From an uncultured Actinomycetota bacterium (lineage in GTDB: Bacteria > Actinomycetota > Actinomycetes > JAFAQI01): 64,000 bases of DNA. A program made the position numbers and the translations under genes. Of this stretch, positions 5,944 through 17,499 are shown piece after piece. The notes under the pieces were generated by a model that was given only the letters and a program-made list of their open reading frames with translations, was not told where the DNA came from and searched no databases. Where the stretch lies: the NCBI GenBank assembly GCA_963770565.1, contig CAVYQE010000011.1, positions 1 through 64,000 of the forward strand, given 5' to 3'. Position 1 is the stretch's first letter, and every line of letters begins with the position of its first letter.

Positions 5944-6471
5944 CTAGGACGGGCAGCCGGGGACGGGCTTGCCGCCCGCGCCGAGCACGACGAGCTGGCA
6001 GAAGGTGACCTTCGAGACCTTCCAGACGCCGCCGTCGAGGACCGCGGTGCCGTCGGCCTTCGGCAGCAGCTTGGTCTTCCCGCCGAACAGCGTGTAGACC
6101 ACTGCCGCACTCATCCCGTCGGAGCTGAAGGTGATCTTCCGGACGATCGCCGACTCCGAGACCTTCTCCTTCTTCGCGATCTTTGCCGCGAAGCTGACCG
6201 CCGGGCCGAGGCTCGCGCCGTCCTGCAGCAGGCTGACCGACACGGAATGCGGAGTGCTCGACTTGAAGAAGGTCGCCCAGTTCTTCTTCAGCTGCTTGGT
6301 CGCGGCCGCGATGCCGGCGGCGCCGGTAGCGACCGGGCCCGGCGCGGCGGACGTGGGGGGAGTGCTCGTGGTCGGGCTGGTGGTCGGCCCGCCGCCGCCG
6401 CTGCTGCTCGAGCTGCACCCGGCGAGCACGAAGAGCACGGACAGAACGAGCGCAACCGGAAGCTTCCGCAT
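5944..6471 (-). CDS. Lys-rich lipoprotein, function unknown
   Basis: MRKLPVALVLSVLFVLAGC lipobox, S/T/P linker, C-terminal WKVSKVTFC...C. Confidence 0.75.
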   Translation of the reverse strand: MRKLPVALVLSVLFVLAGCSSSSSGGGGPTTSPTTSTPPTSAAPGPVATGAAGIAAATKQLKKNWATFFKSSTPHSVSVSLLQDGASLGPAVSFAAKIAKKEKVSESAIVRKITFSSDGMSAAVVYTLFGGKTKLLPKADGTAVLDGGVWKVSKVTFCQLVVLGAGGKPVPGCPS

Positions 6472-6487
6472 GACCCGACCGTACCGT

Positions 6488-6506
6488 ATCTGACGGGTCG
6501 TCACAT
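6488..6506. promoter_or_regulatory. CTGAC-N5-GTCAG-type palindromic operator, copy 1
   Basis: ATCTGACGGGTCGTCACAT between the divergent lipoprotein/ligase operon and the ALDH gene. Confidence 0.65.
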
Positions 6507-6560
6507 AATGGTCCGACCGTGGTCAGACCGCGTCTCGCGGCGTTCGGCGAAGGGATCGCA

Positions 6561-8009
6561 GTGACCGATTTCGAGCAGCTTCTGATCGGTGGTGAGTGGG
6601 TTGCACCCGCCTCGAACAGCCGTTTCGAGGTGCATTCACCAGCGACGCTCGAACTCGTCGGTTCGACCCCGGAGGGAGCCGAGGCCGACATCGACGCGGC
6701 GGTCGCGGCGGCGCGACGGGCGTTCGACCATGGCCCGTGGCCGACCACTTCGCCGGTCGACCGGGCCAAGGTGATCGCGCGGTTCGGCGAGCTGCTCGCC
6801 GAGCGGCTGCCGGAGTTCAAGACTGTGCTGACCGAGGAGATGGGCGCGCCCGGCGCGACCGTCGAGATGATGATGTACACGCCGGCGAGCGCCGTACTCG
6901 GCGTGTTCAACGAGCTGGCGACCAGCTTTCCCTGGGAAGAGACCCGCACCGGGTTGTTCGGGCAGAGCGTGGTGCGGCGTGAGCCGGTCGGAGTGGTGGC
7001 CGCGATCATTCCGTGGAACGTGCCGCTGTTCATCGCCATCAACAAGCTCGTGCCGGCGCTGCTCGCCGGGTGCACGGTGATCCTCAAGCCGGCGCCCGAG
7101 ACCCCGATCGACGCGTTGATGCTCGGCGCGCTGTTCGTCGAAGCTGGTCTGCCGGAGGGCGTGTTGTCGGTGGTGCCGGCGGACCGCACCGTGAGTGAGT
7201 ACCTGGTCACCCACCCCGGGGTCGACAAGGTGTCGTTCACCGGGTCGACCGCGGCCGGTCGTCGAGTCGGATCGCTGGCGACCGAGCGGCTGAAGCGGGT
7301 GTCGCTCGAGCTGGGAGGGAAGTCCGCCGCGATCGTGTTGGACGACGTCGACCTGGCCTCGAGCGCGTTCATGATCGCGTTCTCCGGGTTGATGAACAGC
7401 GGCCAGGCATGTGTCGCGCAGACCCGAATCCTCGCGCCCCGCTCGCGTTACGACGAGATCACCGAGGCGATCGTGGCGTCGGCCGCGATGATGAGCGTCG
7501 GTGACCCGAGCGACCCGGCCACCCAGCTCGGCCCCTTGGTCGCCGAGCGGCAGCGCGACCGGGTCGAGGGCTACATCGAGGCGGGCAAGTCCGAGGGGGC
7601 TCGGCTCGTGCTCGACGGCACCCGTCCGGCCGGGCTCGACCGGGGCTGGTACGTCGGCCCGACCGTGTTCGCCGACGTCGACAACGCGATGACGATCGCA
7701 CGGGAGGAGATCTTCGGCCCGGTGCTGTCGCTGATTCCCTACGAGACTGAGGCCGAGGCGCTGGCGATCGCGAACGACAGCGACTATGGGCTGGCCGGCT
7801 CGGTGTGGACCGCCGATATCGACCACGGCTTCGAGATCGCGACCAAGGTCCGCACCGGTACCTACGGCATCAACTGGTACGCCTTCGACATGGGTTCGCC
7901 GTTCGGCGGCTACAAGTGTTCAGGCATCGGGCGCGAGGACGGGCCGGAAGGGCTGGCCGCGTTCTGCGAGCTCAAGTCGATCCTGATGCCGCTCGGCTAC
8001 ACTGGCTGA
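6561..8009 (+). CDS. Aldehyde dehydrogenase
   Basis: IIPWN, FTGSTAAG, LELGGKS, NSGQACVA, EEIFGPV; GAAGGGA RBS. Confidence 0.95.
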   Translation: MTDFEQLLIGGEWVAPASNSRFEVHSPATLELVGSTPEGAEADIDAAVAAARRAFDHGPWPTTSPVDRAKVIARFGELLAERLPEFKTVLTEEMGAPGATVEMMMYTPASAVLGVFNELATSFPWEETRTGLFGQSVVRREPVGVVAAIIPWNVPLFIAINKLVPALLAGCTVILKPAPETPIDALMLGALFVEAGLPEGVLSVVPADRTVSEYLVTHPGVDKVSFTGSTAAGRRVGSLATERLKRVSLELGGKSAAIVLDDVDLASSAFMIAFSGLMNSGQACVAQTRILAPRSRYDEITEAIVASAAMMSVGDPSDPATQLGPLVAERQRDRVEGYIEAGKSEGARLVLDGTRPAGLDRGWYVGPTVFADVDNAMTIAREEIFGPVLSLIPYETEAEALAIANDSDYGLAGSVWTADIDHGFEIATKVRTGTYGINWYAFDMGSPFGGYKCSGIGREDGPEGLAAFCELKSILMPLGYTG

Positions 8010-12862: not shown

Positions 12863-14449
12863 ATGTCGTCGGCGCTCGATCCACCGTCCGATCTGCACAC
12901 CGCCGCGTTCATGCCCGACCTGCTGGTTGCGGCGCTGACCCGCCACGCGGACCGACCCGCGGTCTATCTCGGCGACGAAGTCCTGACCGCAGCGCAGGTC
13001 GCGGCCGAGATCAGCCGGTACGTCCAGGCCTACCGCAGTCTCGGCATCGGAGTGCAGCATCCGATTGCGATGCTGTCGAAGAACCGGCCGGAAGTGCTGT
13101 TCACGATGGGCGCCAACATGCTCTCGGCCTGCCGGAGTACGTCGCTGCACCCGATGGGCTCGGTCGACGACCAGGCCTACGTACTGGACGATGCCGGCGT
13201 CGAGACGCTGGTGTTCGACCCGTCGGCGTTCGACGAGCGGGCGGCAGAGCTGCGCGAGCGGGTCCCCGGCCTCAAGACCTTGCTGTCCTTCGGGCCGTCC
13301 GAGTCCGGCGTCGACCTGATGGCGCTCGCCGCGACCTTCGAGCCGCAGCCGCTGGTCGCACCGGTCGTCGACCCCGAGCAGGTCACCGGGCTCACCTACA
13401 CCGGCGGCACCACCGGGCAGTCGAAGGGCGTGATGCAGACCTATCGCAGCGGCGCCGCACTCACCCAGATCCAGCTCGCGGAGTGGGAGTGGCCGGCCGA
13501 CACCCGGTTCCTGATCGCTACCCCGCTGTCGCATGCCGGTGCGGCCTTCTTCGTGCCCACGTTGCTTCGCGGCGGCTGCATCGTCGTACTGCCCGGCTTC
13601 GACCCGACCGCGGTGCTCGAGGCGATCCAGAACTACCGGATCACCGCGACGATGCTTGTGCCGACCATGCTCTACATCCTGATGGACCACCCGAAGATCG
13701 ACGAGTACGACCTGTCGAGTCTGGAGACCGTGTACTACGGTGCGGCCGCGATCTCGCCGACCCGGCTCAAGGAGGCGATTGAGCGGTTCGGACCGATCTT
13801 CTTCCAGTTCTTCGGGCAGTCCGAGTGCGGGATGACGATCGCCGTCCTGAAGAAGGAGGAGCACGACACCGGCGACCTTGCCCGGCTCGCCTCCTGCGGC
13901 CGGCCGGTGCCATGGTTGAAGGTGGCATTGCTCGACGACGCGATGAACGACGTGCCCGATGGCGAGCCCGGCGAGATCTGCGTGCGCGGCCCGTTGGTGA
14001 TGAAGGGCTACTGGAACAAGCCCGAGCAGACCGCGGAAGCGTTGCAGGGTGGCTGGCTGCACACCGGTGACATCGCCAGGCGCGACACAGGCGGCTTCCT
14101 GACGATCGTCGATCGCAAGAAGGACATGATCGTCTCCGGCGGCTTCAACGTCTTCCCGCGCGAGGTCGAGGACGTCATCGGCACGCATCCTTCGGTCGCG
14201 CAGGTCGCGGTTATCGGCGTGCCGGACGAGAAGTGGGGTGAGGCGGTCAAGGCGGTCGTGGTGCTGCGGCCCGAGCAGGTGGTCTCGGCCGACGAGCTTG
14301 CCGACCTGGTGCGGGAGCACAAAGGGGCGATCCACGCGCCGAAGTCGGTCGACTTCGTCGACGCGATTCCGTTGTCAGCATTGGGAAAGCCCGACAAGAA
14401 GGCGCTTCGCGCGCAGTACTGGCAGGGCGCGGACCGGATGGTCAACTAG
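12863..14449 (+). CDS. Acyl-CoA synthetase (FadD8-like)
   Basis: YTGGTTGQSKG, QFFGQSE, WLHTGD, DRKKDMIVSGGFNVFPREVE; GGAGG RBS. Confidence 0.9.
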   Translation: MSSALDPPSDLHTAAFMPDLLVAALTRHADRPAVYLGDEVLTAAQVAAEISRYVQAYRSLGIGVQHPIAMLSKNRPEVLFTMGANMLSACRSTSLHPMGSVDDQAYVLDDAGVETLVFDPSAFDERAAELRERVPGLKTLLSFGPSESGVDLMALAATFEPQPLVAPVVDPEQVTGLTYTGGTTGQSKGVMQTYRSGAALTQIQLAEWEWPADTRFLIATPLSHAGAAFFVPTLLRGGCIVVLPGFDPTAVLEAIQNYRITATMLVPTMLYILMDHPKIDEYDLSSLETVYYGAAAISPTRLKEAIERFGPIFFQFFGQSECGMTIAVLKKEEHDTGDLARLASCGRPVPWLKVALLDDAMNDVPDGEPGEICVRGPLVMKGYWNKPEQTAEALQGGWLHTGDIARRDTGGFLTIVDRKKDMIVSGGFNVFPREVEDVIGTHPSVAQVAVIGVPDEKWGEAVKAVVVLRPEQVVSADELADLVREHKGAIHAPKSVDFVDAIPLSALGKPDKKALRAQYWQGADRMVN

Positions 14450-15291
14450 TGAGCTATCCGCGCGAGAACTACCCGCTCGAGCCCGGCGGGGTCGACGACT
14501 ACCCCGTCAAGGTCGGCTCGATGTTGCTCACCCTCGTCGACCCGCACAAGGGCTACGAGGTGGCCTACAACCGGTGGTACGAGCGCGACCACTACAACGC
14601 CGGTTGTCTCATCGGCCCGTGGAACTTCGCCGGCTCGCGATGGGTGGCGACCCGCGAGCTGAAGGATCTGCGCTGGGGTACGACGGCGGTCGCCGATCCG
14701 CTCGACGCCGGCTCCTACGTCGCGATCTATTGGGTCGAGGCCGGTCACCACACCGACTGGGACGAATGGGCACTGCCGCAGGTGCAGTCGTTGTACGGGA
14801 GCGGCCGTGGGTTCATCGAGCGCTCGCACGTGCACACCGCGACCTTCGACCATGTCGGCGCGGCCTACCGCGACCCCGACCCGGTGCCGGTGGAGTTGGC
14901 GCTCGACCACCACTACGACGGCATCGTCGGCGTATGGCTGGACGGCCGCGGCGGCCTCGACGCGGCCGCCCTGCATGAGCTGTTGGTCAGCGGCGGCGCC
15001 GTAGCCGATCTCACTGCGGGTTCGTCGATCGAAATCGTGTCCTCGTGGACGCCACGGTCGGAGTTCCGGAACTCCCGCGACAGCGCACCGATGGCGCTCG
15101 GCTCGCCGGGCGGCCAGGAGAACCGGCTGTGCCAGGTCTGTTTCGTCGGCGGGGACGTCCGTGCCAGCCTCGACCGGTTCCGCGTTTACACCGCTCGGCT
15201 GGCGGCCGACGGGATCGCCGACACCGCCCTGGTGGCGCCGTTCCTGCGCACGGTCGTCGGCACCGACACCTACGTCGACGAGATCTGGTGA
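14449..15291 (+). CDS. Hypothetical protein coupled to the acyl-CoA synthetase
   Basis: TAGTG overlap, GC3-rich codons, AYNRWYERDH motif reminiscent of EthD-like barrels. Confidence 0.75.
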   Translation: MSYPRENYPLEPGGVDDYPVKVGSMLLTLVDPHKGYEVAYNRWYERDHYNAGCLIGPWNFAGSRWVATRELKDLRWGTTAVADPLDAGSYVAIYWVEAGHHTDWDEWALPQVQSLYGSGRGFIERSHVHTATFDHVGAAYRDPDPVPVELALDHHYDGIVGVWLDGRGGLDAAALHELLVSGGAVADLTAGSSIEIVSSWTPRSEFRNSRDSAPMALGSPGGQENRLCQVCFVGGDVRASLDRFRVYTARLAADGIADTALVAPFLRTVVGTDTYVDEIW

Positions 15292-15294
15292 GCC

Positions 15295-15882
15295 TCAGAT
15301 GGTGTGGATCTTGTCCGTGCGGGTGTTCCACACCACCGAGTTGAACTTGCCGAGCTGGCCGCTGGCCGCGTCGATCGGCGCGTAGGAGTACGTGATCGTC
15401 TCGTAGGACAGGGTGAAGTGGTCGCTCGACGGCCCGTCCCCACTCGACGTAAAGCTGTACGAGCTGATGATCACGTTGGCGAGATCGATCTTGACGAACT
15501 TCGCGCTCGTCTGGACGTCCTGGAGCGTGATCTCGACCGTCTTGAACACCCTGCCCTCGGCCATGTCCAGGAAGTACGTCGGTGACTTGGGCGTTGACGG
15601 TGCGGTGAACTCGAGGTTGGACGGCCCGGGCTCGCGACTGCTCCTGCGGCCATGGACTGCGGGTTCACCGGCGCCGAAGCTCACGCTTGTGACCTGGACC
15701 GGGGCCGCCGAGTTGAACTGGACGAAGTATTCGACCGCGCCAGCGCGACCCACGAGGTTCGGGTTCTTTGCCGCGGCGCGGGCGGCAGCCGGCAAGCCAG
15801 CCGCGCCCAGCAGTGCCCCGGCGCCGATCGCACTTCCCTTGAGAATCGTCCGGCGGCTCGTATCGTGCTTCTCGCTGTCCAT
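15295..15882 (-). CDS. Tat-signal, Hcp-like (T6SS/phage tube fold) protein, 195 aa
   Basis: GGAGG RBS and ATG at 15882; SRRTILK...AARA Tat signal; VTSVSFG, LEFT...SPTYF...GRVFKTVEI, IDLANVIISSYSFTSSG, FTLSYETITYSY, VVWN match the Hcp pattern. Confidence 0.72.
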   Translation of the reverse strand: MDSEKHDTSRRTILKGSAIGAGALLGAAGLPAAARAAAKNPNLVGRAGAVEYFVQFNSAAPVQVTSVSFGAGEPAVHGRRSSREPGPSNLEFTAPSTPKSPTYFLDMAEGRVFKTVEITLQDVQTSAKFVKIDLANVIISSYSFTSSGDGPSSDHFTLSYETITYSYAPIDAASGQLGKFNSVVWNTRTDKIHTI

Positions 15883-16002
15883 GGACCGGCCTCCCCTGCT
15901 GACCCGACTTCGTGGATCGCGCGTGGCTTGACCGTACGCTGACCCACACGCAGCGGCAAGGAGCAGCGGGGTGAACACTCGAGTACGGCCGGTGAGCGAC
16001 TT

Positions 16003-17499
16003 GTGACACCTCACCTCGCCGCAGGGCCACAGGTCGTGCCCGGGCTGCGCACGGTGTCCGAGGCCTTCGCCGCCGCCGGCTACCGGCCCGACGGGATCGC
16101 GATGCTGCTCGGGGTCGAGCGCGACATCCCCACCACTCCGGCCGACCTGAGTCTCCACCGGCGACGGCTGGCTGGAGCGCCGGGTCCGCTCGCCGACCTC
16201 GTCACGCTGTTTGCGTTCGGCTGGCCGGTGGCGCTGGACCGAGCGGTCGCCGCAGTCGGCTCGGTCGGGGTCGACGCACTGGTGGCGAGTGGCGCCCTGG
16301 TCGAGCGCGACGGCTCGGTGTCGCCGATGGTGCGGATCGCGCCCCACGACGACGTCTGGATCGCGTCGGACCGTCCGGTGGAGGACGAGTCCGACGCAGA
16401 TCCGCAGCACGTGCCCGGGATCAACCCGCCGGCCACTTTGCTCGCTGCGCTCACCGTTCGCCACCAGGTCGGTTCGGCCCTCGATCTCGGCACCGGCAAC
16501 GGGATCCAGGCGTTGTTGCTCGCCCGGCACTGCGACCGGGTTGTCGCTACCGACGCCAACCCGCGTGCACTGGCGTTCGCAGCCTTCAATGCCGCGCTCA
16601 ACGATGTCGCGGCGATCGAGCTGCGTGCGGGGAGTTGGTTCGAGCCGGTTGCGGGAGAGCGCTTCGACCTGATTGTGAGCAACCCGCCGTACGTCATCTC
16701 TCCGGAGCACGAGTACATGTACCGCGACAGCGGACAGGAGCCCGGCGCGGTCTGCGCGACCGTCATCGGTGGACTGCCGGCGCACCTCACGGACGGTGGC
16801 TACGCCTCGGTGCTGGCAAGCTGGCCGGTCTACGGCGATCGGCACTGGTCCGAGCAACCACGCCAGTGGTTGACGTCCGGCGGTCGGGCCTGGCTGTTGC
16901 AGTTCAGCCTGGACGACCCGCTGTCGCATGCAGCCCGATGGAACCAGCCGCTCGCCTCGGTCGGGCAGCTCGATGCGTTCGAGGAGTCGGTGGGGCGATG
17001 GGTGCGATACACCGGCGAACGGGGGATCGAAGCGATCGGGTACGGCGCGGTGATCGTGCAGCAACACGACGGGGCGCCAATCGTGGTGCGCGCCGACCAT
17101 GTGCGGACCGGACACGGCGATATCACCACGCAGGTCGAACGAGTCTTTGCGGCGCACGAGCTCCTCGCCGGGCTGGACGACGATGCGGTGGCCGGGCTGG
17201 CTTGGCAGCCGGCACCGGAGCTGCGGGTACGACGGGGCTTGCGCCACATCTCGGGCGATTGGCAGCCGGGAGAGACGGTCGTGACCCTGGCCGACGGCGC
17301 GCTGGTCGAGGCGACGCTCGACCCGATGATGGGCGAGATCCTGCTTCGGTCGACCAGCGGCCAGTCGGTACGGGCGGCCGCAGAGCAGGTCGCCTCGCTT
17401 GCCGAGCTCGGGCCCGACCAGGTGCCTGAGCTGCTCGGCGCAGCGGTCGCGATGGTTCGCGAGTTGGTGACGCTGGGAGCGCTGGTCGCGGCCGGGTAG
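16003..17499 (+). CDS. Class I SAM-dependent methyltransferase (HemK-like NPPY), with N- and C-terminal extensions
   Basis: ALDLGTGNG, VVATDANPRA, FDLIVSNPPY. Confidence 0.85.
   Translation: MTPHLAAGPQVVPGLRTVSEAFAAAGYRPDGIAMLLGVERDIPTTPADLSLHRRRLAGAPGPLADLVTLFAFGWPVALDRAVAAVGSVGVDALVASGALVERDGSVSPMVRIAPHDDVWIASDRPVEDESDADPQHVPGINPPATLLAALTVRHQVGSALDLGTGNGIQALLLARHCDRVVATDANPRALAFAAFNAALNDVAAIELRAGSWFEPVAGERFDLIVSNPPYVISPEHEYMYRDSGQEPGAVCATVIGGLPAHLTDGGYASVLASWPVYGDRHWSEQPRQWLTSGGRAWLLQFSLDDPLSHAARWNQPLASVGQLDAFEESVGRWVRYTGERGIEAIGYGAVIVQQHDGAPIVVRADHVRTGHGDITTQVERVFAAHELLAGLDDDAVAGLAWQPAPELRVRRGLRHISGDWQPGETVVTLADGALVEATLDPMMGEILLRSTSGQSVRAAAEQVASLAELGPDQVPELLGAAVAMVRELVTLGALVAAG

What the first reader, a model, noticed from the sequence alone, without database searches (positions are those of the whole stretch)
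15295..15882. Orphan Hcp-like tube protein with a Tat signal peptide in a monoderm
Seen: hidden at the end of a spurious 650-aa ORF is a 195-aa gene with its own RBS, an SRRTILK twin-arginine leader and a mature region that follows the Hcp pattern. No TssB/C, VgrG, PAAR, baseplate or phage genes occur in these 64 kb. Known: canonical Hcp has no signal peptide, is exported by the T6SS of diderms and forms hexameric rings; Tat exports folded, even oligomeric, cargo. Inference: a repurposed tube protein exported on its own, possibly forming extracellular rings or filaments or carrying cargo.
Basis: partly seen in the sequence, partly recalled or inferred. Interest (0 to 1): 0.78.

Follow-up and report, generated by a model that had tools for sequence, protein, structure and literature searches.

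The report
Exported Hcp-like protein with partner methyltransferase
A soil actinobacterium with no injection machinery makes a protein shaped like the tube subunit of a bacterial injection system but fitted with an export signal, and its gene repeatedly sits beside a dedicated methyltransferase gene.

Summary
Window 15298..15882 (-) is a real 195-aa gene at the end of a spurious 650-aa ORF. Third-codon-position GC (GC3) is 0.88, and dN/dS against orthologues is 0.16-0.40. It passes Pfam T6SS_HCP (39.6 bits, cut-off 23.5), and its model matches solved Hcp structures (Foldseek E about 1e-11 to 1e-12). Residues 1-36 read as a twin-arginine (Tat) leader: SRRTILK, a Gly/Ala-rich core and ARA before the cleavage site. 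The generic Tat HMMs score below their cut-offs. TatC and TatA are present. No sheath, VgrG, gp25 or eCIS-tube match was found in this 94.9%-complete genome, PAAR and gp25 gave only sub-threshold noise, and no sheath match was found in five other carriers.

New points:
1. Most close single-domain relatives carry Tat-like or Sec-like leaders, and many long relatives hold six Hcp domains in one chain.
2. The gene is paired with a distinct clade of DUF7059/HemK-like N-methyltransferases in five lineages, and no other neighbour is shared.
3. The leader is far more conserved than the mature domain (80% against 41% identity).

A four-copy model predicts head-to-tail self-association, which may reflect memory of solved Hcp rings. 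Ring formation, cargo and the methyltransferase's target remain inferred. I rate this a new variant of a known kind, of moderately high interest.

The parts
15295..15882 (-). Gene for the 195-aa Hcp-like pre-protein (stop codon 15295-15297, CDS 15298-15882)
   Evidence: Translation. GC3 0.88. PF05638 39.6 bits against cut-off 23.5. dN/dS 0.16-0.40 against three orthologues.
15890..15896 (-). Ribosome-binding site GGGGAGG, 7 nt upstream of the ATG
   Evidence: Read directly from the sequence.
15775..15882 (-). Twin-arginine-type signal peptide, residues 1-36. SRRTILK is residues 9-15 (15838-15858). The uncharged Gly/Ala-rich core is residues 16-34. A34-R35-A36 precedes the predicted cleavage site.
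   Evidence: Sequence. R10, R11, L14, A18, G20, G22 and L24 are at least 90% conserved in 31 relatives. A at -1 in 12 of 12 relatives, A at -3 in 11 of 12, a basic residue at -2 in 12 of 12. Leader identity 0.80 against domain 0.41. The Tat HMMs are below cut-off.
15298..15735 (-). Hcp-fold domain, residues 50-195
   Evidence: AF2 model: every 10-residue block mean from residue 91 onward is 86-98, and blocks 71-90 are 60-76. Foldseek hits to Hcp1 4w64, 1y12, 5xhh and 3eaa at E 6e-12 to 7e-11. Predicted self-interface residues.
15883..16002 (.). 120-bp divergent intergenic region shared with the methyltransferase gene
   Evidence: Coordinates. Conserved only within the genus. No Rfam family over threshold. 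One weak sigma-70-like match on + at 15839-15866.
16003..17499 (+). Partner gene: 498-aa SAM-dependent N-methyltransferase (DUF7059 + MTS domain, NPPY motif). It belongs to a clade found only next to Hcp-like genes.
   Evidence: Pfam MTS 52.2 bits and DUF7059 36.1 bits. Nearest NCBIfam models are PrmC/HemK, all below cut-off. Nearest PDB sequence is the gentamicin N-methyltransferase 5u1i, E 3e-22. Adjacency. Clade with SH-aLRT 100.

Best explanation
Shown: window 15298..15882 (-) encodes a 195-aa pre-protein made of a twin-arginine-type signal peptide (about 36 residues), a short linker and an Hcp-fold beta-barrel domain. The genome has TatA and TatC. No sheath, VgrG or eCIS-tube gene was detected, and PAAR and gp25 gave only sub-threshold matches.

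Inferred mechanism: the protein folds in the cytoplasm, is exported by Tat, and is cut after Ala36. The roughly 159-aa mature protein then self-associates head to tail, most likely into Hcp-like rings, in the wall zone or the medium. There it would act without any contractile machine, as a scaffold or a binder.

Shown: in five lineages the gene is coupled to a dedicated paralogue clade of DUF7059/HemK-GenN-like N-methyltransferases.

Inferred: the two genes work together. The simplest version is that the cytoplasmic enzyme modifies the Hcp-like protein, or something it carries, before export. That would also give a reason for using the folded-protein Tat route.

The protein belongs to a wider, mostly leader-bearing branch of the Hcp family. 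That branch includes single chains with six Hcp domains.
For: Gene reality: GC3 0.88, RBS, dN/dS 0.16-0.40 in 6 of 6 pairs among 4 orthologues.

Fold: PF05638 is over its cut-off, phmmer's best PDB hit is Hcp1 1y12 at E 0.01, and Foldseek gives probability 1.00 with TM up to 0.85 on the target.

Leader: SRRTILK is followed by a 19-residue uncharged core and ARA. All 8 word-search relatives carry SRRT[IV]LKG. RR is at least 90% conserved in 31 relatives. TatC and two TatA genes are present. On a tree built without the leader columns, the protein sits in a 17-row clade that is entirely Tat-leader (SH-aLRT 95).

No injection system: for the own genome. 0 of 5 other carriers have VipB or Phage_sheath_1.

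Self-association: four copies of residues 46-195 score ipSAE 0.78 (median of 3 runs) against a best control of 0.00. The runs share at least 94% of contacts and the partner pLDDT is at least 83. That mark was reached by 20 of 30 solved pairs and 1 of 23 single chains. Each copy uses two different faces.

Six-domain relatives: 19 of 28 listed relatives of 900 aa or more have 6 matched stretches. 7 of 7 tested have 6 PF05638 domains. The P0016 model has pTM 0.78 over 1048 residues.

Methyltransferase link: the gene is adjacent in the own genus, G017/L045, L012, G508/G557 and G531. In 401 genomes of the class, the five best methyltransferase hits (E 1e-133 or lower) are exactly the Hcp-adjacent ones, and the next best is 2e-66. 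The 9 adjacent methyltransferases form one clade against 31 others (SH-aLRT 100; 1 change against a shuffled mean of 8.3). No other gene is shared between the five contexts.
Against: The Tat HMMs are below cut-off, and no dedicated Tat predictor was available.

The complex job had four copies and used my own alignment, unlike its calibration. Hcp hexamers are solved, so the pass may be memory. I saw no coordinates, so 'ring' was not observed.

The window's subclade lacks about 11 residues of the usual first hairpin, and the loop at residues 70-89 is modelled with low confidence.

One carrier, G001 (96% complete), has the Hcp-like gene but no methyltransferase at E 1e-20 or lower. The second copy in G017 also lacks it.

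The 9 adjacent rows represent only about 5 lineages, all actinobacterial, so shared descent inflates the tree statistic.

No conserved Gln or Lys that could serve as a methylation site stood out.

The strong conservation of the leader could mean it is retained as an anchor rather than cleaved.
Confidence: 0.6

Rival explanations
1. The conserved leader is not cleaved, and the Hcp-like domain stays tethered to the outer face of the cytoplasmic membrane by an N-terminal signal-anchor, rather than being released.
For: The leader is twice as conserved as the mature domain (0.80 against 0.41 mean pairwise identity, 55 pairs), which is unusual for a disposable signal peptide. There is no lipobox cysteine and no sortase motif that would suggest another way of anchoring.
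Against: A-x-A at -3/-1 is kept in 11 of 12 relatives, and A at -1 in 12 of 12. The 19-residue Gly/Ala-rich core is weakly hydrophobic: maximum 12-residue Kyte-Doolittle mean 1.79, against mostly 2-3.7 for the Sec-like leaders of relatives.
Confidence: 0.15
2. It is an exported Hcp-fold domain that no longer oligomerises. It would act as a monomeric binding or adhesin-like module, and the predicted interface only echoes solved Hcp rings.
For: About 11 residues of the canonical first hairpin are deleted in this subclade. The loop at residues 70-89 has low confidence. The complex tool warns that families with solved complexes pass from memory. In other Actinomycetota, Hcp-like domains occur as C-terminal modules after Gly-X-Y (collagen-like) repeats.
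Against: ipSAE 0.78 against 0.00 for the controls, with two distinct faces used per copy. P101 and G110, both nearly invariant, lie at or within the predicted interface. Relatives with exactly six domains per chain argue that ring formation persists among exported forms.
Confidence: 0.2
3. It is a leftover or a detached part of a T6SS or eCIS. Either the rest of that system lies in the unassembled 5% of the genome, or the gene is decaying.
For: The genome is 94.9% complete in 11 contigs, so absence cannot be proven. One public source names the 64%-identical relative P0004 'type VI secretion system tube protein Hcp'.
Against: Seven hallmark families gave no match, or only noise, in the own genome. 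0 of 5 other carriers have either sheath family. There is purifying selection. A conserved export leader does not fit loading into a cytoplasmic sheath.
Confidence: 0.04
4. The pairing with the methyltransferase is only inherited gene order or shared regulation, with no biochemical link between the two proteins.
For: All paired loci are from one class. G001 keeps the Hcp-like gene without the enzyme. No candidate target residue was found. The broader DUF7059 methyltransferase family is common and mostly unlinked: 216 of 401 genomes.
Against: The pair persists while the Hcp-like protein drops to 27-37% identity and every other neighbour changes. The orientation changes from divergent to co-directional in G531, yet adjacency is kept. 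The adjacent enzymes form their own clade, and G508, G557 and G531 each have a second match to the methyltransferase elsewhere in the genome (35-37% identity).
Confidence: 0.3

Closest known systems
Hcp/TssD, the T6SS tube protein (for example Hcp1 PA0085, PDB 1y12; A. baumannii Hcp1, 4w64)
   Same: Same Pfam family, above the cut-off, and the same fold. A head-to-tail self-interface is predicted.
   Different: It has a conserved Tat-type leader. No T6SS genes were detected in six carrier genomes. About 11 residues of the first hairpin are missing in this subclade. It is only 14-20% identical to solved Hcps in the structural alignments. That canonical Hcp has no signal peptide is recalled knowledge.
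Tube proteins of extracellular contractile injection systems and phage tails (Pfam Phage_T4_gp19), the kind known from Streptomyces (recalled)
   Same: The tube-protein fold class is distantly related. One ESM Atlas look-alike cluster at 0.86 carries PF06841, which is a lead only.
   Different: PF06841 has no match in the own genome, and no sheath was found. The protein matches Hcp, not gp19.
Tat-exported, cofactor-less secreted proteins of high-GC actinobacteria (recalled from work on Streptomyces)
   Same: The leader is of the S-R-R-x-[FILV]-L-K type, with a Gly/Ala-rich core, a basic residue before A-x-A and Tat genes present. Other Tat-style leaders occur in the same genome.
   Different: As far as my searches show, no Hcp-fold cargo has been described. 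The leader is unusually conserved.
HemK/PrmC protein glutamine N5-methyltransferases and the gentamicin N-methyltransferase GenN (for the partner enzyme)
   Same: It has the MTS domain and the NPPY motif. The best NCBIfam hits are PrmC/HemK. The best PDB sequence hit is 5u1i, a putative gentamicin methyltransferase, E 3e-22.
   Different: All NCBIfam scores are far below their cut-offs, for example PrmC 68 bits against 199. It has an added N-terminal DUF7059 and a C-terminal part of about 200 residues. It forms its own Hcp-linked clade. Its substrate is unknown.

Membership tests
Hcp/TssD (T6SS tube protein) | Sequence match to the family model above the curated cut-off | tested here: met
   PF05638 scores 39.6 bits against a cut-off of 23.5, residues 62-167. 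The genome scan gives 40.1 bits. PF17642 TssD scores only 14.2 against 25.8.
Hcp/TssD (T6SS tube protein) | Hcp beta-barrel fold | tested here: met
   AF2 mean pLDDT 80.8. Foldseek hits to 4w64, 1y12, 5xhh, 3eaa and 4tv4 with probability 1.00 and target TM 0.72-0.85.
Hcp/TssD (T6SS tube protein) | No N-terminal signal peptide; leaves the cell through the T6SS (recalled definition) | tested here: not met
   A Tat-type leader occupies residues 1-36 and is conserved in relatives.
Hcp/TssD (T6SS tube protein) | Encoded in a genome that has T6SS core genes (TssB/C, VgrG, TssE, PAAR) | tested here: not met
   No match for VipB, VipA or Phage_GPD. gp25 scores E 0.5 and PAAR E 0.7 in the 94.9%-complete genome. 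0 of 5 other carriers have VipB.
Hcp/TssD (T6SS tube protein) | Homohexameric ring that stacks into a tube | tested here: inconclusive
   Four copies score ipSAE 0.78 against a control of 0.00, with two faces used per copy. The model had only four copies, the geometry was not seen, and the result may be memory of solved rings. Stacking is not testable here.
Tat (twin-arginine) substrates | S/T-R-R-x-F-L-K-type motif, weakly hydrophobic core, A-x-A cleavage site | tested here: met
   SRRTILK, the uncharged core G16-A34 and A34-R35-A36 were read. Core hydrophobicity is 1.79. The consensus itself is recalled.
Tat (twin-arginine) substrates | Match to curated Tat-signal models | tested here: inconclusive
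   Pfam TAT_signal scores 11.1 against 22.7, and TIGR01409 scores 13.4 against 16.7. SignalP and TatP were not available.
Tat (twin-arginine) substrates | Tat translocase present in the genome | tested here: met
   TatC 224.5 bits. Two TatA/B/E genes, one about 240 bp from tatC on contig C10.
Tat (twin-arginine) substrates | Export depends on Tat and on the RR pair | not testable with these tools
   This needs a secretion assay with an RR-to-KK variant and a tatC mutant host.
eCIS or phage tail tube (Phage_T4_gp19) | Match to PF06841 and a sheath gene in the genome | tested here: not met
   No PF06841 match and no Phage_sheath_1 match. P0001 has no Pfam hit to gp19.
HemK/PrmC-type N-methyltransferases (partner gene) | MTS-type SAM fold with the NPPY motif, and an equivalog-level score | tested here: inconclusive
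   MTS scores 52.2 bits over its cut-off, and NPPY is present. PrmC scores 68.1 against 199.1, HemK family 58.3 against 115.5 and L3 Gln methyltransferase 52.6 against 229.7, all below cut-off.

The most novel reading that the evidence does not exclude
Exported Hcp rings are a widespread extracellular protein class that works without any T6SS. It includes Tat-leader forms in Actinomycetota, Sec-leader forms elsewhere, and single chains with six Hcp domains that carry a Planctomycete extracellular motif. In the actinobacterial branch, a dedicated cytoplasmic N-methyltransferase modifies the folded subunit before Tat carries it out. The very highly conserved leader could double as the recognition handle for that enzyme.
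Probability: 0.2. Interest if true: 0.8.

Novelty: new variant of a known kind. Interest (0 to 1): 0.62.

Why it matters
[quoted passage not shown] Here the same fold carries a conserved export leader and is under selection. It occurs in six genomes where no contractile machinery was detected, and it is tied to its own methyltransferase. If the rings form outside the cell, this is an independent second use of a phage-tail-derived building block. It would also warn against inferring T6SS from Hcp hits in genome surveys. It gives a tractable two-gene system for asking why a cofactor-less protein uses the Tat route. The six-domain single-chain relatives would be natural 'pre-assembled' rings, which would interest protein engineers, since Hcp1 is already used as a hexamerising fusion partner (entry names 4ksr, 6ap1 and 7o42).

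Tried and rejected
Literature. Five full-text searches found no paper on Hcp-family proteins with signal peptides, in Gram-positives, or with six tandem domains. The terms were Hcp + twin-arginine + signal peptide, Hcp-like + Actinobacteria, Hcp domains + tandem + Planctomycetes + hexamer, orphan Hcp / Hcp homolog / Tat signal and PF05638 + signal peptide. I saw only listings and the starts of abstracts and read no paper. DUF7059 appears in 0 papers. Subscription journals and supplements were not searched.

Mobile elements. tblastn of the protein found no match in 72,556 plasmid records or 50,697 phage records.

Regulatory RNA and promoter. Rfam gave only a sub-threshold snoRNA hit at E 0.09. 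One weak sigma-70-like site and no terminator-like site were found. The intergenic region aligns only within the genus.

Expression. One 160-nt contig of a metatranscriptome run (X9) lies at 15592-15751 with no differences. One contig of a run guessed to be RNA (X11) lies at 15239-15406. RNA libraries can hold DNA, so I do not count this as evidence of transcription.

Methylation site. An alignment of 8 Hcp-like proteins (7 methyltransferase-linked and one unlinked) showed no invariant Gln or Lys in the mature part.

Third partner. No further gene is shared among the five contexts. A LacI-like gene at about 30% identity, lying at different distances in the window and in G508/G557, was judged coincidental.

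Own-genome Tat-leader scan. My crude rule listed 50 candidates among 3452 coding-like ORFs, some with clear Tat-style leaders. It missed the gene in question, because that gene lies in the long spurious ORF, and it includes false positives. I use it only as an illustration.

Ring geometry of the six-domain model. Foldseek aligns single domains only, so the ring is inferred from pTM 0.78 alone.

Monoderm status was not tested. It rests on record titles of relatives: 'uncultured Frankiaceae', 'Jatrophihabitantaceae', 'Mycobacteriales bacterium'.

Rows dropped or relabelled.
- One search used 105 of the 157 proteins held. It took lengths of 140-260 aa only and dropped P0002 and P0005 as a near-duplicate and a fragment.
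- In one search I relabelled P0021 and P0097 from Sec-like to Tat-like by hand, because they are N-terminally truncated copies of Tat-type leaders.
- One search dropped L034 because its match was short.
- One search dropped P0021.

Unpublished genomes. The tally of 14 of 401 and the L018 sequence read include G061. The methyltransferase tallies include G043 and G465, and L037 (from G043) is one of the 31 unlinked rows. No conclusion depends on these genomes alone.
Full report
THE GENE. The ORF listing reports a 650-aa ORF at 15295..17247 on the minus strand. Only its last 195 codons look coding. GC by codon position is 0.55/0.52/0.88 for 15295..15882. For 15883..17247 it is 0.82/0.53/0.75, and that stretch is the mirror image of a real plus-strand gene at 16003..17499 (0.77/0.51/0.85). 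The ATG at 15880-15882 is preceded by GGGGAGG with a 7-nt spacer. The product (P0001) starts MDSEKHDTSRRTILKGSAIGAGALLGAAGLPAAARAAAKNPN.... Against orthologues in G003, in a metagenome contig (L043) and in G001 (92%, 73-74% and 64% identity), dN/dS is 0.16-0.40 in all six pairs. The gene is therefore real and under purifying selection.

THE FOLD. Pfam T6SS_HCP matches residues 62-167 at 39.6 bits, against a cut-off of 23.5. phmmer against PDB sequences finds only Hcp proteins, the best being Hcp1 PA0085 at E 0.01. An AlphaFold2 model built on 43 relatives has mean pLDDT 80.8. The leader and the loop at residues 70-89 are poorly defined, and every 10-residue block mean from residue 91 onward is 86-98. 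Foldseek ranks Hcp1 of A. baumannii, P. aeruginosa, Salmonella and Edwardsiella first (E 5.6e-12 to 7e-11, probability 1.00, target TM 0.72-0.85, 14-20% identity). Relative to most Hcps, the window's subclade lacks about 11 residues after the first strand, the 'DGIxGES...' hairpin.

THE LEADER. Residues 9-15, SRRTILK, fit the twin-arginine consensus (recalled: S/T-R-R-x-F-L-K). A 19-residue uncharged Gly/Ala-rich core follows, then A34-R35-A36. All eight relatives from the word-based search carry SRRT[IV]LKG. In 31 Tat-type relatives, R10, R11, L14, A18, G22 and L24 are at least 90% conserved and G20 is invariant. In the 12 closest relatives the -1 position is Ala in 12 of 12, -3 is Ala in 11 of 12, and -2 is Arg, His or Lys in 12 of 12. 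The core is weakly hydrophobic: its maximum 12-residue Kyte-Doolittle mean is 1.79, while the Sec-like leaders of other relatives are mostly 2-3.7. The genome encodes TatC (224.5 bits) and two TatA-family proteins, one about 240 bp from tatC on contig C10. Against this, the generic Tat HMMs fall short: Pfam 11.1 against 22.7, TIGR01409 13.4 against 16.7. I had no SignalP or TatP. I conclude that a Tat leader is very likely but not proven. The mature part has no cysteine, hence no lipobox, and has no sortase motif.

AN ODD FEATURE. Among the 11 closest full-length relatives, the leader (residues 6-36) is 80% identical on average, the linker 35% and the Hcp domain 41% (55 pairs). Signal peptides usually drift faster than their cargo. 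This hints that the leader does more than target the protein, for example by being recognised by a partner or being retained. I cannot distinguish between these.

NO INJECTION MACHINE. In the whole assembly (4.43 Mb, 11 contigs, 94.9% complete) PF05638 hits only this gene. VipB/TssC, VipA/TssB, Phage_sheath_1, Phage_GPD (VgrG) and Phage_T4_gp19 (eCIS tube) give nothing at E up to 1. PAAR and gp25 give only noise, at E 0.7 and 0.5. Five other carriers of the gene (G001, G003, G017, G508, G557; 91-96% complete) have neither sheath family. The neighbours in the window are ordinary metabolic genes: LacI, MFS, an alcohol dehydrogenase, an acyl-CoA synthetase, a Nudix hydrolase, a luciferase-like oxidoreductase, a thiolase and a cyclase. 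Absence cannot be proven in draft genomes, but six out of six is consistent.

WHERE IT OCCURS. The gene is patchy:
- 4 of 61 relatives, the own genome included.
- 5 of the 38 genomes of its small uncultured order.
- 22 of 401 genomes (14 of 173 genera) of the class with the Tat-type profile at E 1e-8 or lower.
- Any PF05638 match in 14 of 401 genomes of the phylum.

Titles of related records read 'uncultured Frankiaceae', 'Jatrophihabitantaceae' and 'Mycobacteriales bacterium'. 'Monoderm' is thus plausible but untested. Soil and rhizosphere metagenome runs hold the stretch.

THE WIDER FAMILY. An exhaustive phmmer search of 1.84 billion representatives gave 205 hits at E 1e-3 or lower. I classed 105 single-domain proteins (140-260 aa) among those held with a simple rule of my own. 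It gave 33 Tat-like leaders, 50 Sec-like leaders and 22 without a leader. After hand-correcting two truncated rows, the counts were 35, 48 and 22. A tree of the domain alone, with the leader columns removed, puts P0001 in a 17-row clade in which every row has a Tat-type leader (SH-aLRT 95). Leader type is clustered on that tree: 21 changes against a shuffled mean of 46.5. The query's own leader biases the search somewhat toward Tat-type hits, but the Sec-type hits match through the domain only. ESM Atlas look-alikes are two clusters of about 200-aa 'Hcp family' proteins with 62 and 70 members, commonest in Actinomycetota. So this gene is a member of a sizeable, unremarked branch of exported Hcp-like proteins. 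One public source labels the 64%-identical relative P0004 simply 'type VI secretion system tube protein Hcp'.

SIX DOMAINS IN ONE CHAIN. Among the 150 listed hits, 28 are 900 aa or longer. Of these, 19 show exactly six matched stretches, and the rest show 4, 5 or 7. Pfam finds six T6SS_HCP domains in 7 of 7 that I tested, and one also shows the 'Planctomycete extracellular' N-terminal motif just under its cut-off. An AF2 model of one (P0016, 1048 aa) has mean pLDDT 79.6 and pTM 0.78. That pTM is too high for six independently tumbling domains, so a fixed arrangement is predicted. Six is the subunit number of Hcp rings, so a single-chain ring is the obvious reading. I could not inspect coordinates, and Foldseek aligns single domains only. 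This supports the idea that exported members of the family still make rings.

SELF-ASSOCIATION OF THE WINDOW'S PROTEIN. Four copies of residues 46-195, each with the 43-row alignment, scored ipSAE 0.78 (median of three runs: 0.77, 0.78, 0.80). The three controls with unrelated proteins scored 0.00. The runs share at least 94% of contacts, and the partner pLDDT is at least 83. The tool's mark was reached by 20 of 30 solved pairs and by 1 of 23 single chains. Each copy uses two different faces. One is formed by residues 96-112, 136-148, 159-161 and 187-188. The other is formed by 49-52, 65-88, 93, 120, 130, 165-169, 181-185 and 192-194. This is what a cyclic or helical head-to-tail assembly needs. 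There are caveats: the job had four copies and used my own alignment, unlike the calibration; Hcp hexamers are in the PDB, so the pass may reflect likeness; and the score says nothing about what happens in a cell.

THE PARTNER GENE. The Hcp-like gene is divergently transcribed, 120 bp away, from a 498-aa methyltransferase at 16003..17499 (+). This enzyme has DUF7059 at its N-terminus, an MTS-type SAM domain with the NPPY motif, and a further part of about 200 residues. Its nearest named relatives are PrmC/HemK protein-glutamine methyltransferases, all far below their cut-offs. Its nearest solved relative is the gentamicin N-methyltransferase (5u1i, E 3e-22). It is therefore probably an N-methyltransferase of unknown substrate.

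The same pair recurs in:
- the own genus, namely G003 and the metagenome contigs L041-L044;
- G017, which equals L045 (Hcp-like 37% identical, enzyme 53%);
- a Jatrophihabitantaceae MAG, L012 (32% and 53%), and L014, where the enzyme looks frameshifted;
- G508 and G557, of another family (27-30% and 49%);
- G531, where a leaderless Hcp-like gene is followed on the same strand by the enzyme.

Nothing else is shared among these five contexts.

The DUF7059 methyltransferase family as a whole is common: 216 of 401 genomes of the class at E 1e-30 or lower. However, the five best hits (E 1e-133 or lower; 48-100% identity) are exactly the Hcp-adjacent ones, and the next best is 2e-66. G508, G557 and G531 each have a second match to the methyltransferase elsewhere in the genome, at 35-37% identity. 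On a tree of 40 enzymes, the 9 adjacent ones form one clade with SH-aLRT 100 against 31 unlinked ones. That is 1 change against a shuffled mean of 8.3, reached by 0 of 500 shuffles. Nine of the unlinked enzymes were also checked directly and have no Hcp-like gene within 1.5 kb.

There are exceptions. G001 keeps the Hcp-like gene (64% identical) and the flanking Nudix gene, but has no such enzyme at E 1e-20 or lower. The second, 30%-identical copy in G017 stands alone. The nine rows amount to about five lineages of one class, so the statistics overstate independence. Even so, adjacency that survives this much divergence, rearranged flanks and a flipped orientation argues for a functional two-gene module. 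I found no conserved Gln or Lys that would mark a methylation site.

MOST LIKELY MECHANISM. Shown: a real gene, an Hcp fold, a conserved Tat-type leader, the Tat machinery present, no detectable contractile system, and a conserved partner enzyme clade. Inferred: folding in the cytoplasm, Tat export, cleavage after Ala36, and head-to-tail assembly into rings outside the membrane. Also inferred is a role for the methyltransferase before export, either modifying the protein or loading or modifying something it binds. Tat is a general secretion route in high-GC actinobacteria (recalled), so the leader alone does not require a special explanation. A cytoplasmic modifying enzyme would, however, make the folded-protein route meaningful. 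What the ring does is open. It could be a scaffold, a carrier or a surface structure.

VERDICT. It is not an ordinary T6SS Hcp, because two defining features were tested and not met. It is also not unique. I rate it a new variant of a known kind. The added findings are the leader-bearing branch, the six-domain chains and the methyltransferase module. None of the six literature searches turned these up.

Noticed in passing
Proteins P0011-P0013, P0015-P0020, P0022, P0025-P0027, P0029, P0032-P0034, P0040, P0050 and P0064: Long relatives (about 950-2200 aa) each hold exactly six Hcp domains in one chain. Among listed hits of 900 aa or more, 19 of 28 have six matched stretches. Pfam finds six domains in 7 of 7 tested, and one also shows a 'Planctomycete extracellular' N-terminal motif just under its cut-off. 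The P0016 model has pTM 0.78. These look like single-chain Hcp hexamers. I found no paper on them.
   Followed up: partly
L097 9285-11616 (G531 contig C93): A three-gene string on one strand. The first gene encodes a 158-aa protein with a Tat-like leader (DRRALLVGVGA) and no Pfam family. The second, starting right after the first gene's stop codon, encodes a leaderless 155-aa Hcp-like protein. The third encodes the Hcp-linked methyltransferase. A leader-bearing neighbour of a leaderless Hcp-like protein raises the possibility of Tat 'hitchhiker' co-export. This is untested.
   Followed up: partly
L023 (G203), L060 (G648), L064 (G598), L065 (G539), L067 (G632), L068 (G586): Other Actinomycetota carry Hcp-like domains at the C-terminus of proteins that have long Gly-X-Y (collagen-like) repeats upstream. 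This is another architecture incompatible with T6SS.
   Followed up: no
window 15775-15882 (-), with alignment A3: The signal peptide is about twice as conserved as the mature domain: 80% against 41% mean pairwise identity. This is unexplained.
   Followed up: partly
window 15413-15931 (+): A 172-aa ORF antisense to the Hcp-like gene has GC3 0.83, because it shares third-codon positions with the true gene. Together with the 650-aa ORF, it could mislead gene callers.
   Followed up: yes
window 14449-15291 (+): A 280-aa ORF with strong coding signal (GC3 0.90) has no Pfam or NCBIfam family. Its GTG start overlaps the last base of the stop codon of the acyl-CoA synthetase gene, and its own stop lies 3 bp from the convergent Hcp-like stop. 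Among the loci compared it was found only beside the own-genus-type copies (G003 and metagenome contigs L041-L043), not in G001.
   Followed up: partly
L014 about 6400-7850: The Hcp-linked methyltransferase in this uncultured Actinomycetota MAG aligns as two overlapping pieces, which suggests a frameshift or an assembly error. The adjacent Hcp-like match is partial.
   Followed up: no
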